Shown in pieces: positions 34,066 to 53,710 of a stretch of 64,000 bases of DNA. The notes beneath the pieces were generated by a model, which was not told where the DNA came from, did no database searches, and saw nothing but the letters and a program-made list of their open reading frames with translations. Origin of the DNA: Minisyncoccota bacterium (GTDB lineage: Bacteria; Patescibacteriota; Minisyncoccia; Phycocordibacterales; UBA6065); NCBI GenBank assembly GCA_035714745.1, contig DASTLR010000007.1, forward strand, positions 6,205 to 70,204. The letters run 5' to 3'. Position 1 is the first letter of the stretch. Every line of letters starts with the position of its first letter. A program made the position numbers and the translations under genes.

Positions 34066-34608
34066 GGCCGCAGAATGCTCGGAAGATTGTCGCGAAACGC
34101 TCGGCTCCCTGCCGGGCGTTTTGCTATGAGGCCGCCCCCTCTTCAAAAAATGACGTTCGTCAAAATGGAGTTTTAAAGCTCCATTTCGGCGAAAAGGAAA
34201 TTTTGCGATATCCTTGCCTCCGAAGCAGCATAAGTCTTTGCATGTAAAACTATCCATGCTAGATTTATGCCAGTGCCACTGTTCTTCAGCCTTCGGGCAT
34301 GTGCGAGTAATACGCGGAAACCTAGCTTGCCGGCGAGTAATGGTGGACCTGTTGCGCCACGATGAATACCGGATCGAAAGAAGGGTTCGCGACCTATCAG
34401 ATAGTTGGCGGGGTAATAGCCCACCAAGTCTATGACGGGTAGCTGTCGTTGAGATACACACAGCCGGAGAAGAACGCAATCAGACGCACGATATAGAAAT
34501 GACCGGCCGGTCATGACGCCGGAGTATATACCCGGCCTTAAGGAGACCCTCGGGCCCACCCGAGCTATCCGAGCCCCGACTTCGCGTCGGGGCTTTTGCT
34601 ATATACTT

Positions 34609-52793: not shown

Positions 52794-52823
52794 TTGAAAA
52801 ACAGCCAGAATTATACTAGTATT
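52794..52823 (+). promoter_or_regulatory. candidate sigma70-type promoter for tRNA-Thr pair
   Basis: TTGAAA, an 18-nt spacer, then TAGTAT. It lies about 26 nt upstream of the tRNA 5' end. Confidence 0.3.
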
Positions 52824-52849: not shown

Positions 52850-53118
52850 GCCAACGTAGCTCAGTCGGTAGAGCACGTCATTGGTGGGTCGTAACCCCTG
52901 CCCACGCGCGCGGCAACGCTCGCGTGAATCCCGAATAACGGTTAAAGCCCTAGCGTCCTTGGACCGGGTCAAGACCGTGGCGCCACGTCTCCATTGACAG
53001 CGCCCGAACGACTGACAAGGGTCTCCGCTCTGCGGAGAAAGATACAGTCTAGTCCTCCCGCAAGGAGAGGTGTTAACGAATGACGAGGTCTCCGGTTCGA
53101 TCCCGGACGTTGGCTCCA
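52850..53118 (+). tRNA. tRNA-Thr (anticodon GGT) interrupted by a group I intron after anticodon position 36
   Basis: Exon 1 (52850-52885) and exon 2 (53079-53118) join into a perfect 76-nt cloverleaf. Acceptor GCCAACG/CGTTGGC, anticodon stem CGTCA/TGACG with loop TTGGT|AA (identical to the E. coli tRNA-Thr GGU loop), T-arm TCCGG-TTCGATC-CCGGA, and CCA. Confidence 0.75.
52886..53078 (+). ncRNA. group I self-splicing intron (193 nt, Azoarcus tRNA-Ile-like insertion site)
   Basis: Begins after U36 (U-G wobble at the 5' splice site) and ends with G (omega G). Contains the R-like element GAACGACTGACA and the S-like element AAGATACAGTCTAGTCC. The same 36/37 insertion position is used by the Azoarcus CAU intron. 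Confidence 0.7.
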
Positions 53119-53131
53119 GACGGAATAGAAC

Positions 53132-53205
53132 GCCACCTTAGTTCAGTGGTAGAACGGCGGTATCGTAAACCGCAGACCCCAGTCCGATTCTGGGCGGTGG
53201 CTCCA
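53132..53205 (+). tRNA. tRNA-Thr (anticodon CGT)
   Basis: Acceptor GCCACCT/CGGTGGC (one U-C mismatch at 7-66), D-stem GTTC/GAAC, anticodon stem GCGGT/ACCGC with loop ATCGTAA, T-arm CCCAG-TCCGATT-CTGGG, and CCA. Confidence 0.7.
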
Positions 53206-53248: not shown

Positions 53249-53710
53249 ATGCCTAATCCTAAAAAACCTAGGATCCTTTGTCCTATCTGCGGCAAAGAAC
53301 CCTATCGCTCTTTCTACAAATATTGCAGCAATGCGTGTCAGCAAGAATATCAATACCGTCAATATATTGAAAAATGGAAATCAGGAAAAGTGACCGGACT
53401 CCAAAGCATCGGCGTCGTCAACCCGTATATCAAAAAATACCTAAGAAGAAAATTCAATGATACGTGCATGCTGTGCGGCTGGGCGCAAAAAAATCCTATA
53501 ACCAATAAAGTTCCGCTGGTCGCAGACCATATCGATGGCGATTGGCGCAATAACGTCGAGAGCAATCTGCGGCTTATCTGCCCTAATTGCGACTCGCTCA
53601 CGCCGACATACTCAGGCCTAAATCGGGGCAAGGGTCGTCCCCATAGGACGCCGAGCAGAAGAGCTGCTCAGGCGAAGCTCCTGCTTACTCAGAGATCTCC
53701 CCTCTCCTGA
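53249..53710 (+). CDS. HNH endonuclease (free-standing, low-GC)
   Basis: LVADHIDGDWRNNVESNLRLICPNCD is the HNH motif with Zn Cys pairs. N-terminal CPICGK...C zinc ribbon. The gene is about 41% GC against about 62% in its surroundings. Confidence 0.78.
   Translation: MPNPKKPRILCPICGKEPYRSFYKYCSNACQQEYQYRQYIEKWKSGKVTGLQSIGVVNPYIKKYLRRKFNDTCMLCGWAQKNPITNKVPLVADHIDGDWRNNVESNLRLICPNCDSLTPTYSGLNRGKGRPHRTPSRRAAQAKLLLTQRSPLS

What the first reader, a model, noticed from the sequence alone, without database searches (positions are those of the whole stretch)
52850..53118. tRNA-Thr(GGU) split by a 193-nt group I intron inserted after anticodon position 36
Removing 52886-53078 joins two exons into a perfect tRNA with anticodon loop UUGGUAA. 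The intervening sequence follows a U, ends in G, and contains R-like (GAACGACTGACA) and S-like (AAGATACAGTCTAGTCC) group I core elements. The 36/37 insertion position is the one used by the Azoarcus tRNA-Ile intron. Bacterial tRNA group I introns are rare outside cyanobacteria and a few proteobacteria, and I do not know of a tRNA-Thr example. An intact tRNA-Thr(CGU) follows 13 nt later.
Basis: partly seen in the sequence, partly recalled or inferred. Interest (0 to 1): 0.8.

Follow-up and report, generated by a model that had tools for sequence, protein, structure and literature searches.

The report
Group I intron splitting tRNA-Thr(GGU)
A threonine tRNA gene is interrupted by a compact 193-base self-splicing-type (group I) intron. 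It belongs to a large, recently described family in ultra-small Patescibacteria that standard RNA databases miss, so the call is right but the case is not unique.

Summary
ARAGORN in intron mode calls tRNA-Thr(GGU) at 52850-53118 with a 193-nt intron (52886-53078) inserted at 36/37.

- An intron-agnostic scan of GTDB genomes hit its 120-locus limit and yielded 96 distinct homologous introns (176-266 nt). All sit at 36/37 of tRNA-Thr(GGU), and most are in Patescibacteria MAGs.
- On this alignment a P1-P9 group I fold is about 90% paired, against 28-49% in slid controls. Compensatory changes occur in P1ext, P2, P3, P6, P8, P9 and P9.0.
- The U•G pair at the 5' splice site, the terminal G, P4, P7 and the R/S elements are essentially invariant.
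- A profile built without the window finds exactly the intron (E=1.5e-36).
- Rfam RF00028 finds nothing in the window.

The class is already published: Williams 2020, Castelle 2018 (as cited) and Nakagawa 2026 describe tRNA-Thr(GGU) 36/37 'divergent group I introns' missed by RF00028. This is therefore a new member of a known kind. Self-splicing of this class is still untested.

Two extras:
- The P1 loop carries the same dinucleotide as J7/9, so it could pair with the intron's last three bases, including the terminal G. That pairing would be an alternative to P9.0.
- A free-standing HNH endonuclease gene lies next to the tRNA-Thr genes.

The parts
52794..52822 (+). Sigma-70-like promoter candidate (TTGAAA-17-TAGTAT) about 28 nt upstream of the tRNA
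   Evidence: Consensus scan, (9/12 matches). A weak pattern match only.
52850..52885 (+). 5' exon of tRNA-Thr(GGU), positions 1-36, ending in anticodon GGU
52883..52885 (+). P1, exon strand (G34 G35 U36). U36 forms the U•G wobble at the 5' splice site.
   Evidence: Pairs with 52900-52902 (GCC). GC 96/96, GC 96/96 and UG 95/96 in alignment A1.
52886..53078 (+). 193-nt group I intron
   Evidence: ARAGORN -i. Family HMM envelope 52886-53078, E=1.5e-36. Family CM 176.3 bits.
52886..52897 (+). P1 extension hairpin (GGGU/ACCC) with loop L1 = CGUA
   Evidence: Compensatory changes in 3 of its 4 pairs on A1 and in all 4 on A3.
52890..52892 (+). L1 triplet C5 G6 U7, complementary to the last three intron bases (53076-53078). 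Proposed alternative partner of the 3' tail.
   Evidence: L1/tail combinations CGC/GCG 39, CGT/ACG 15, CAC/GTG 5, CAT/ATG 3 and others. 96-97% paired with 15-22 double changes per variable pair.
52900..52902 (+). Internal guide sequence (G15 C16 C17) pairing with the exon GGU
52903..52926 (+). P2 hairpin with GNRA loop L2 (GCAA, 52913-52916)
   Evidence: All 9 pairs show double-sided changes. L2 is GNRA in 91/96.
52930..52932 (+). P3 5' strand (CCC), pairs with 53019-53021 (GGG)
   Evidence: 99% paired. All 3 pairs show compensatory C-G to U-A changes.
52933..52978 (+). J3/4 (GAAUA), P4 (ACGGUU 52938-52943 / GACCGU 52973-52978), J4/5 AAA, P5-P5a (52947-52969), J5/4 CAA
   Evidence: P4 is 100% paired and almost invariant. 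The only frequent change is U•G to C-G. The P5 register is poorly aligned (50-55% paired). The blocks resemble the RF00028 consensus gAAUUGCGGgAAA ... uAAuCCGCA.
52979..53004 (+). P6/P6a hairpin (GGCGC...GCGCC)
   Evidence: 95% paired. 4-5 pairs show double changes, for example GGCG/CGCC to CCCG/CGGG.
53005..53018 (+). J6/7, P7 5' strand (GACUG 53010-53014) and J7/3 (ACAA). This is the 'R' element.
   Evidence: GAACGACTGACAA is identical in 91/96. It resembles RF00028 GUUCAaAGACUAAA.
53019..53021 (+). P3 3' strand (GGG)
53022..53038 (+). P8 hairpin (UCUCCGC ucu GCGGAGA)
   Evidence: All 7 pairs show double-sided changes.
53039..53049 (+). J8/7 (AAGAUA) and P7 3' strand (CAGUC 53045-53049). This is the 'S' element. 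P7 crosses P3 to form a pseudoknot.
   Evidence: P7 is 99.8-100% paired and invariant. The block matches the RF00028 consensus AAGAUAUAGUCu at 11 of 12 positions.
53052..53053 (+). J7/9 dinucleotide G167 U168, the P9.0 partner of C192 and A191 (53077, 53076)
   Evidence: P9.0 is paired in 90/96. On A3 it is 95.8% paired with 24-25 double changes per pair, against 4-51% in slid controls.
53054..53070 (+). P9 hairpin with GCAA loop
   Evidence: 98% paired. All 4 outer pairs covary.
53076..53078 (+). 3' tail A191 C192 and the terminal G (G193, 53078)
   Evidence: G is the last base in all family members.
53079..53118 (+). 3' exon of tRNA-Thr(GGU), positions 37-76 including the encoded CCA
53132..53205 (+). 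Neighbouring intact tRNA-Thr(CGU). Context only, not part of the intron.
53249..53710 (+). Free-standing HNH endonuclease gene (153 aa). Context; a possible mobile neighbour of the tRNA-Thr genes.
   Evidence: PHROG HNH endonuclease family, E=8e-18. Synteny.

Best explanation
The 193 bases at 52886-53078 are a compact, ORF-less group I intron inserted between positions 36 and 37 of the tRNA-Thr(GGU) gene. It belongs to the family that the literature calls the 'divergent group I introns' of Patescibacteria tRNA-Thr.

Proposed mechanism; the steps are inferred from group I chemistry and were not shown here.
1. The precursor is transcribed, possibly together with tRNA-Thr(CGU).
2. The exon end G34-G35-U36 pairs with the guide GCC (52900-52902) to form P1, with the U•G wobble at the splice site.
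3. The P3-P8 core folds, comprising the P4-P6 stack and the P3/P8/P7 pseudoknot, with the GNRA loop L2 as a tertiary clamp.
4. An exogenous guanosine bound at P7 attacks the U36|G1 bond.
5. The terminal G (53078) is positioned by the 2-bp P9.0 (53052-53053 with 53076-53077) and enters the same site.
6. The 3'-OH of U36 attacks the G193|A37 bond. This ligates the exons into a mature tRNA-Thr(GGU) and releases the intron.

The anticodon stem (CGUCA/UGACG) probably helps hold the exons together, because P10 is at most 1 bp.
For: Shown here:
- Exact exon and intron boundaries come from an independent tool.
- At least 96 distinct homologous introns sit at the same site in the same tRNA, all with U-1 and a terminal G.
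- The P1-P9 fold is 89-91% paired against 28-49% in slid controls. 35-40 pairs carry double-sided changes, and 0/500 shuffles reach this on four (A1) or all five (A3) measures.
- P9.0 covaries.
- P4 and P7 are invariant, and the R/S blocks are nearly so. They closely resemble the RF00028 consensus printed.
- A family HMM built without the window and its two nearest relatives hits 52886-53078 at E=1.5e-36, the only hit in 64 kb.
- The family CM cross-hits two loci (L014, L095) that RF00028 itself calls group I, at 34.6 and 61.7 bits.
- RF00028 gives a weak overlapping hit on the Thr intron of L095 (26.9 bits, E=0.002).
- The exons are intact cloverleaves in every family member.
- The spliced product is 66/73 identical to an uninterrupted tRNA-Thr(GGU) in a related contig.

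Literature:
- The same class is listed in three complete Patescibacteria genomes and is missed by RF00028. In one of these genomes (GCA_001029635.1) tRNAscan-SE and ARAGORN each find only 2 tRNA-Thr, where other genomes have 3. This suggests the split gene is the only GGU copy there (PMC13011429).
Against: - Rfam RF00028 gives no hit on the window even at E<=10 on a 421-nt slice, and none in 7 of the 8 relatives scanned (one weak overlap, L089); a further relative, L095, gave a weak overlapping hit.
- P3 has only 3 bp and P1 only 3 exon pairs.
- P5 is poorly supported in my alignments (50-55% paired).
- No splicing assay exists for any tRNA-Thr member. Nakagawa et al. tested only Asn and Asp introns.
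- I could not check whether another tRNA-Thr(GGU) exists elsewhere in this genome, because only 64 kb was seen.
Confidence: 0.87

Rival explanations
1. It has group I ancestry but no longer splices by itself. The minimal core (3-bp P3, 3-bp P1, no P10) would need a protein chaperone or maturase in vivo, or splicing would be slow or regulated, so the intron acts as a control point for tRNA-Thr(GGU) supply.
For: The helices are very short. No in vitro data exist for this class. Nakagawa et al. speculate that these introns have regulatory roles. An alternative L1/3'-tail pairing exists that would hold the terminal G away from the active site.
Against: All catalytic-core elements are conserved and covary like those of an active ribozyme. 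The related Patescibacteria Asn and Asp tRNA introns self-splice in vitro. No candidate maturase is consistently linked: the HNH gene is present in only 11 of the 120 loci from the scan (about 99 of them intron-bearing).
Confidence: 0.09
2. It is a dead relic. The tRNA-Thr(GGU) gene is a pseudogene disrupted by a decayed intron, and ACY codons are read by another tRNA.
For: Standard annotators do not call the gene. Only 64 kb of the genome was inspected.
Against: Exons and core are under obvious purifying selection in at least 96 species, with compensatory rather than random changes. The window's copy has every invariant position of the family.
Confidence: 0.03
3. It is not a group I intron at all. 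It would be another kind of insertion, such as an integrative-element scar, a MITE, or an archaeal-type protein-spliced intron that happens to sit in the anticodon loop.
For: There is no Rfam group I hit.
Against: It is single-copy in the window. The position is always exactly 36/37, with U-1 and a terminal G. The P3/P7 pseudoknot topology and the J8/7 block match the RF00028 consensus. The family CM cross-detects bona fide RF00028 introns. The position is not the archaeal canonical 37/38.
Confidence: 0.01

Closest known systems
Patescibacteria tRNA-Thr(GGU) 36/37 'divergent group I introns' (Castelle et al. 2018 as cited; Nakagawa et al. 2026, mSystems, PMC13011429; detected by tFind's gpI_bact_tRNA.cm, Williams 2020)
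   Same: Same host tRNA, same anticodon and same 36/37 site. Same behaviour with tools: missed by RF00028 and by default tRNA finders. Comparable length. The window is homologous to a family that includes a complete Wolfebacteria genome, CP011209.1 (L039), by HMM/CM.
   Different: Nothing essential; it is another member. The paper lists three cases among 95 complete genomes. My scan shows the family is much larger (at least 96 species representatives, scan truncated). The family also appears in contigs labelled outside Patescibacteria, for example Niastella populi.
[quoted passage not shown]
   Same: Same insertion site in the anticodon loop ('5Ug' setting). A 3-bp exon/guide P1 (Azoarcus detail from my memory). 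A compact ORF-less P1-P9 layout with GNRA loops. P9.0 is present (PMC13168695).
   Different: Different tRNA. The core sequence is different enough that RF00028 fails. Nakagawa et al. place the Thr introns with the subgroup IA clade, and none of the Patescibacteria tRNA introns were assigned to IC. Many members are shorter than the roughly 205-nt Azoarcus intron (that length is from my memory), down to 176 nt.
Patescibacteria tRNA-Asn/Asp 35/36 group I introns (subgroup IA; self-splicing shown in vitro)
   Same: Same phylum and the same kind of host gene. Said to be the phylogenetic sister group of the Thr introns.
   Different: Different insertion site (35/36). They are detected by RF00028, and some carry HNH homing endonuclease genes inside the intron. 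The Thr family is ORF-less, and its splicing is untested.
Other catalogued tRNA-Thr introns (Rba53.Thr.5Ug and Mti5.Thr.3Ug in the seed alignment of Williams 2020)
   Same: A tRNA-Thr gene is interrupted by a group I intron, and Thr.5Ug is also at 36/37.
   Different: The seed sequence shown (…AAAUUCGGGGAAA…GCCAAG…) has a core unlike this family's. I read it as IC3-like, which is my own judgement and was not tested. It appears to be an independent insertion.

Membership tests
Group I intron | 5' splice site follows a U that forms a U•G wobble with the internal guide in P1 | tested here: met
   U36 (52885) pairs with G15 (52900). UG in 95/96 family members, and the two flanking G-C pairs in 96/96.
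Group I intron | Intron ends in a guanosine (omega G) | tested here: met
   G at 53078. G in every family member.
Group I intron | Conserved core of P3-P8 with the P4-P6 stack and the P3/P7 pseudoknot, in the order P3-P4-P5-P6-P7-P3'-P8-P7' | tested here: met
   The topology was written out and counted. P3 is 99% paired, P4 100%, P6 95%, P7 100% and P8 80-83%. P3, P6 and P8 show compensatory changes, while P4 and P7 never vary. P5 is only 50-55% paired because of alignment register.
Group I intron | P9.0: the bases just before omega G pair with J7/9 | tested here: met
   90/96 paired. 95.8% paired with 24-25 double changes per pair, against 4-51% in slid controls.
Group I intron | Sequence similarity of the core (R and S elements, J3/4-P4, J8/7) to the curated family consensus | tested here: met
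   Compared by eye with the RF00028 consensus line printed by cmscan. AAGAUACAGUCU matches AAGAUAUAGUCu at 11/12. GACU is in the P7 5' strand. GAAUAACGGUUAAA compares with gAAUUGCGGgAAA.
Group I intron | Reaches the Rfam RF00028 gathering score | tested here: not met
   No RF00028 hit on the window at gathering, nor at E<=10 on 421 nt. Relatives give none or weak hits (21.6 and 26.9 bits). This is a known limitation for this class. It is offset by the family CM cross-hitting RF00028-positive introns.
Group I intron | Guanosine-dependent self-splicing with exon ligation | not testable with these tools
   Needs an in vitro transcript with GTP/Mg2+. This has not been reported for any tRNA-Thr member.
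Patescibacteria tRNA-Thr(GGU) 36/37 intron family | Inserted between positions 36 and 37 of tRNA-Thr(GGU) | tested here: met
   ARAGORN -i: 'Insertion Position(36-37): ttggt-Intron-aatga'.
Patescibacteria tRNA-Thr(GGU) 36/37 intron family | Homologous in sequence and structure to the other members | tested here: met
   nhmmer with a leave-out profile gives E=1.5e-36 with the envelope equal to the intron. The CM gives 176.3 bits. 89% identity to L007.
Patescibacteria tRNA-Thr(GGU) 36/37 intron family | Host is a member of Patescibacteria (CPR) | tested here: inconclusive
   The window is an unlabelled metagenome scaffold (ENA ERZ28572737, 306 kb). The nearest loci by intron, PrfB (72-74%) and FtsE (80-85%) are MAGs labelled Saccharibacteria, Paceibacteria or Kaiserbacteria. 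No phylogenetic placement was done.
Subgroup IC3 (Azoarcus-type tRNA introns) | Assignment by subgroup covariance models or characteristic peripheral elements | not tested
   Subgroup models were not available here. Nakagawa et al. report that no Patescibacteria tRNA intron is IC, and that the Thr introns group with IA.

The most novel reading that the evidence does not exclude
The family carries a built-in conformational switch for the 3' splice site. In about 70% of members the P1-extension loop (window C5-G6-U7, 52890-52892) has the same dinucleotide as J7/9, preceded by an invariant C. The intron's last three bases (A-C-G, 53076-53078) can therefore pair either with L1 or with J7/9. Pairing with L1 buries the terminal G in a C-G pair. 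Pairing with J7/9 forms the canonical P9.0 and leaves the terminal G free for the guanosine site. All three sites covary together. The L1 pairing could keep the terminal G out of the active site until the first step is done, suppressing 3'-site hydrolysis and full-length circle formation. Alternatively it could lock the excised intron against reverse splicing. I found no description of this in the papers I could read.
Probability: 0.35. Interest if true: 0.55.

Novelty: new member of a known kind. Interest (0 to 1): 0.38.

Why it matters
For annotation, this gene is invisible to default tRNA finders and to Rfam. Genomes carrying it look as if they lack tRNA-Thr(GGU), which distorts completeness and codon-reading inferences for Patescibacteria.

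For ribozyme biology, the family offers roughly a hundred natural variants of a very small group I core (176-266 nt, with a 3-bp P3), which is a ready-made covariation data set. None has been tested for splicing. One apparent carrier, Niastella populi CCTCC AB 208238, is a cultured strain in which splicing could be checked directly.

The finding itself does not overturn anything. It confirms and extends a class described between 2018 and 2026.

Tried and rejected
1. Rfam as the arbiter. RF00028 found nothing in the window. I rejected this as evidence against a group I intron, because the literature and my own scans of relatives show the model is blind to this class.
2. Phage origin. blastn of the split gene against 50,697 phage records matched only 34 nt of an unrelated tRNA.
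3. 'Collaborative homing' with the adjacent HNH endonuclease, in which a free-standing nuclease cuts intron-less alleles and the intron protects. HNH homologues follow the intron-bearing tRNA in 11 of the 120 GTDB loci. But among 80 metagenomic HNH loci the gene is tied to tRNA-Thr(CGU) in 77. It sits next to intact tRNA-Thr(GGU) (about 13 loci) more often than next to the split one (5-6 loci). The specific link to the intron is therefore not supported. The sample was biased, so the idea is weakened rather than excluded.
4. P10. I looked for 3'-exon pairing with the guide strand and found at most U14-A37. No conserved P10 exists, so exon alignment is presumably left to the anticodon stem.
5. 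P5. My register for P5 is right for the window but not for most members (50-55% paired). I did not refine it.
6. Castelle et al. 2018 could not be read because it is not held. The phrase 'divergent group I introns' is taken from Nakagawa's citation of it.
7. I could not verify that CP011209.1 (L039) is the GCA_001029635.1 of Nakagawa's Table 1.
Full report
OBSERVATION. The sequence is as described (coordinates checked by script).
- The 5' exon is 52850-52885 and ends in ...CAUUGGU.
- The insert is 52886-53078, 193 nt, from GGGUCG to UUAACG.
- The 3' exon is 53079-53118, beginning AAUGACG and ending with an encoded CCA.
- Joined, they give a 76-nt cloverleaf with anticodon loop UUGGUAA.

The session's default ARAGORN run and the Rfam tRNA model do not see this gene. 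The intact tRNA-Thr(CGU) lies at 53132-53205, 13 nt after the CCA.

IS IT MORE THAN CHANCE? I spent the single genome-collection scan on a pattern that says nothing about the insert. The pattern was the 5' half of a tRNA with anticodon GGT followed by any base except the universal A37. A script that required a matching anticodon stem, T arm and acceptor stem downstream rebuilt a split tRNA-Thr(GGU) in 99 cases. Ninety-six of these had distinct inserts of 176-266 nt (median 194). All sit between positions 36 and 37, all follow a U and all end in G. Nearly all hosts are MAGs labelled as Patescibacteria lineages: Kaiser-, Wolfe-, Nomura-, Moran-, Uhr- and Peregrinibacteria, Paceibacteria and Saccharibacteria.

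The inserts align into one family (A1) with long invariant blocks. The consensus is GCCCA-P2-AAUCCCGAAUAACGGUUAAA ... CAAGACCGUGGCG ... CGCCCGAACGACUGACAAGGG-P8-AAGAUACAGUCUAGCCCUC ... GAGGUGUAAGCG. A profile HMM built from 93 members, leaving out the window and its two closest relatives, finds one hit in the 64-kb window. Its envelope is 52886-53078, exactly the proposed intron, at E=1.5e-36. A covariance model of the family scores it at 176 bits. The nearest relative is L007, at 89% identity.

WHAT IT IS. I wrote out a group I secondary structure from the window sequence and counted it on the family alignment.

Helix assignments (intron numbering, 1 = 52886):

| Helix | Bases |
|---|---|
| P1 | exon G34-G35-U36 with G15-C16-C17 |
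| P1 extension hairpin | 1-12 |
| P2 | 18-41, with a GNRA loop |
| P3 | 45-47 with 134-136 |
| P4 | 53-58 with 88-93 |
| P5 | 62-84 |
| P6 | 94-119 |
| P7 | 125-129 with 160-164, crossing P3 |
| P8 | 137-153 |
| P9 | 169-185 |

Results on the MAFFT alignment:
- 89.0% of cells are standard pairs, against 30-48% when the 3' partners are slid by 1-3 columns.
- 35 of 53 pairs carry changes on both sides.
- No shuffle out of 500 reaches the observed values.

On the model-guided alignment A3 the figures are 90.7% paired and 40 pairs with double changes.

By helix:
- P2, P8 and P9 covary at every pair.
- P3 is 99% paired, with C-G to U-A exchanges at all three pairs.
- P6 shows four to five covarying pairs, including whole-helix swaps (GGCG/CGCC to CCCG/CGGG, visible).
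- P4 and P7 are invariant, so they say nothing either way.
- P5 is badly aligned (50-55% paired) and is the weak point.
- The U•G wobble at the 5' splice site is present in 95/96.
- L2 is GNRA in 91/96.
- The canonical P9.0 is present: J7/9 nucleotides 167-168 pair with the two bases before the terminal G in 90/96. On A3 it is 95.8% paired with 24-25 double changes per pair, against 4-51% in slid controls.

WHY RFAM IS SILENT, AND THE BRIDGE TO CANONICAL GROUP I. RF00028 gives nothing on the window, even at E<=10 on a 421-nt slice. It also gives nothing on the Thr introns of most relatives. The exceptions are two weak overlapping hits: L089 at 21.6 bits, and L095 at 26.9 bits with E=0.002.

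The RF00028 consensus printed by cmscan for an unrelated intron lets the cores be compared without relying on memory:

| Element | RF00028 consensus | This family |
|---|---|---|
| J8/7-P7' | gAAGAUAUAGUCu | AAGAUACAGUCU (11/12) |
| J6/7-P7-J7/3 | GUUCAaAGACUAAAcGg | CGAACGACUGACAAGGG |
| J3/4-P4-J4/5 | gAAUUGCGGgAAA | GAAUAACGGUUAAA |
| P4'-P6 | uAAuCCGCAGCC | CAAGACCGUGGCG |

The family model's only weak extra hits are L014 7667-7867 and L095 7036-7263. These fall on loci that RF00028 itself calls group I introns, at 34.6 bits and at 61.7 bits, the latter above the gathering score. The family is therefore a divergent branch of group I rather than something else. The short P3 and the different spacing plausibly defeat the Rfam model; that reason is my inference.

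HOW IT MOST LIKELY WORKS. This follows standard group I chemistry and is inferred, not shown here.
1. P1 presents U36•G15.
2. An exogenous guanosine bound at the G-C pair of P7 cleaves after U36.
3. The terminal G (53078), placed by P9.0, replaces it.
4. The 3'-OH of U36 attacks the bond between G193 and A37, joining the exons.

I found no conserved P10. At most U14 pairs with A37, so the anticodon stem probably aligns the exons, as reported for the Anabaena pre-tRNA intron (title of reference 29).

That the intron must splice is inferred from selection.
- The exons stay perfect in about a hundred species.
- The window's spliced product is 66/73 identical to an uninterrupted tRNA-Thr(GGU) in a related contig.
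- In one complete genome of the published set, tRNAscan-SE and ARAGORN each find only two tRNA-Thr where other genomes have three. This suggests the split gene is the only GGU copy there.

AN UNEXPECTED DETAIL. The loop of the P1 extension hairpin covaries with the 3' end of the intron. Positions 5-7 against the last three bases are CGC/GCG (39), CGU/ACG (15, including the window), CAC/GUG (5), CAU/AUG (3), CGU/GCG (3), CUU/GAG, CUC/GAG and CGA/UCG. This pairing is 96-97% paired with 15-22 double changes per variable pair.

The same two tail bases also form P9.0, so L1 and J7/9 carry the same dinucleotide in most members. L1 pairing is possible in 68/96, P9.0 in 90/96 and both in 64/96. The two pairings exclude each other. 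The L1 version would put the terminal G into a C-G pair, which I expect (from memory of group I structures) to be incompatible with its docking at P7.

I read this as a possible switch. It could hold the terminal G back during the first step, or silence the excised intron afterwards. That is inference only. A subclade whose introns begin UAAUUAAAUAGCC lacks it. Nakagawa et al. do not mention P9.0, P10 or pseudoknots. The Azoarcus pre-tRNA cryo-EM paper, from the passages returned by my term search rather than a full reading, describes register shifts of P1ext and no such pairing.

COMPARISON WITH WHAT IS KNOWN. The class is published.
- Williams (bioRxiv 2020) expanded interrupted bacterial tRNA types from 4 to 21. 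The seed alignment includes Thr.5Ug and Thr.3Ug introns.
- Nakagawa et al. (mSystems 2026, PMC13011429) list tRNA-Thr(GGU) introns at 36/37 in three complete Patescibacteria genomes. They state that these 'divergent group I introns' (a term they attribute to Castelle et al. 2018) are missed by RF00028. Two of the three are mis-called by ARAGORN as Arg(GCG) 34/35, and all three are found by tFind's gpI_bact_tRNA.cm. They group the Thr introns with the subgroup IA tRNA introns of the phylum.
- They tested splicing only for the Asn and Asp 35/36 introns.

The window's intron is thus a further member of that family. It is not right about the lineage, because no Patescibacteria tRNA intron was assigned to IC.

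The window itself comes from an unlabelled 306-kb metagenome scaffold. Its Patescibacteria affiliation is inferred from the closest loci: PrfB 72-74% and FtsE 80-85% identity to L007 and L068.

THE HNH NEIGHBOUR. The 153-aa ORF at 53249-53710 is an HNH endonuclease (PHROG families, E=8e-18 to 8e-14; Pfam only marginal). It lies in a lower-GC stretch. Homologues at 56-71% identity lie just downstream of the split tRNA-Thr(GGU) in 11 of the 120 GTDB loci.

I tested the idea of a free-standing homing endonuclease cooperating with the intron by fetching 80 metagenomic loci that encode the protein.
- In 77 of them the gene sits immediately upstream of tRNA-Thr(CGU), often abutting it.
- Upstream of the gene lie tRNA-Gly(CCC) in 21 loci, an intact tRNA-Thr(GGU) in about 13, and an intron-bearing one in 5-6.

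The endonuclease gene is therefore a variable, probably mobile, neighbour of the tRNA-Thr cluster and not a specific partner of the intron. In the window its position, after tRNA-Thr(CGU), differs from the common one.

VERDICT. The novelty claim is not: this is a new member of a known, recently described kind.

Three things add modest interest beyond a routine annotation. The first is the size of the family (at least 96 species representatives, with the scan truncated). The second is its appearance in a cultured Niastella strain. The third is the three-way covariation among L1, J7/9 and the 3' tail. Self-splicing of this class remains to be shown.

Noticed in passing
window 53249-53710 (+); loci L121-L200: A free-standing 153-aa HNH endonuclease gene lies next to the tRNA-Thr genes. 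In 77 of 80 metagenomic loci its homologue sits immediately upstream of tRNA-Thr(CGU) on the same strand, often abutting it. It is present or absent among close relatives, which fits a mobile gene tied to the tRNA-Thr cluster. In the window it lies downstream of tRNA-Thr(CGU) instead.
   Followed up: partly
window 34304-34466 (+): An isolated 163-nt fragment matches small-subunit rRNA (bacterial model positions 107-310, 57.2 bits, above gathering; archaeal model 42.8 bits). No other rRNA pieces were found in 31-38 kb or elsewhere in the window. It overlaps long ORFs listed on both strands.
   Followed up: partly
window 2000-26000: A block of about 24 kb has 43-53% G+C, against about 59-65% G+C in the rest of the window. 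It starts next to tRNA-Gln at 2144-2217 and may be a genomic island or prophage.
   Followed up: no
L042 5234-5414 (-) (Niastella populi CCTCC AB 208238, NZ_LWBP01000002.1): A 181-nt member of the same intron family (CM 179.7 bits) sits in a 300-kb contig of a cultured Bacteroidota isolate. The surroundings are about 40% G+C, with a resolvase and a TrwB/HerA-like ATPase nearby. Other carriers with non-Patescibacteria labels are L055 (Gammaproteobacteria), L074 (Bdellovibrionales) and L110 (Azotimanducaceae).
   Followed up: partly
L024 2927-3165 (+) and 3214-3230: A canonical RF00028 group I intron (37.5 bits) is followed by a match to the 3' end of tmRNA. It looks like a tmRNA gene interrupted by a group I intron, in the same Vogelbacteria contig that carries the Thr intron.
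   Followed up: no
L095 7051-7263 (-); L014 7683-7869 (-): Second, RF00028-positive group I introns (61.7 and 34.6 bits) lie next to other tRNA genes in contigs that also carry the Thr intron. These genomes therefore hold at least two intron-split RNA genes within 8 kb.
   Followed up: no
L003, L016, L049 (Solirubrobacterales MAGs): A tRNA-Thr(GGU) 5' half is followed by GACTACGCC... instead of A37. In L003 a matching 3' half lies 2.5 kb downstream. This is not the family described here. It may be an integrated element or a long intron.
   Followed up: no
L006 5193-5222 and 5452-5481: Two pattern matches lie 260 nt apart, each followed by the same intron start (GGGACGCAATCCC). The second has a different acceptor stem and runs off the contig end. 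This may be a tandem pair of intron-bearing tRNA genes.
   Followed up: no
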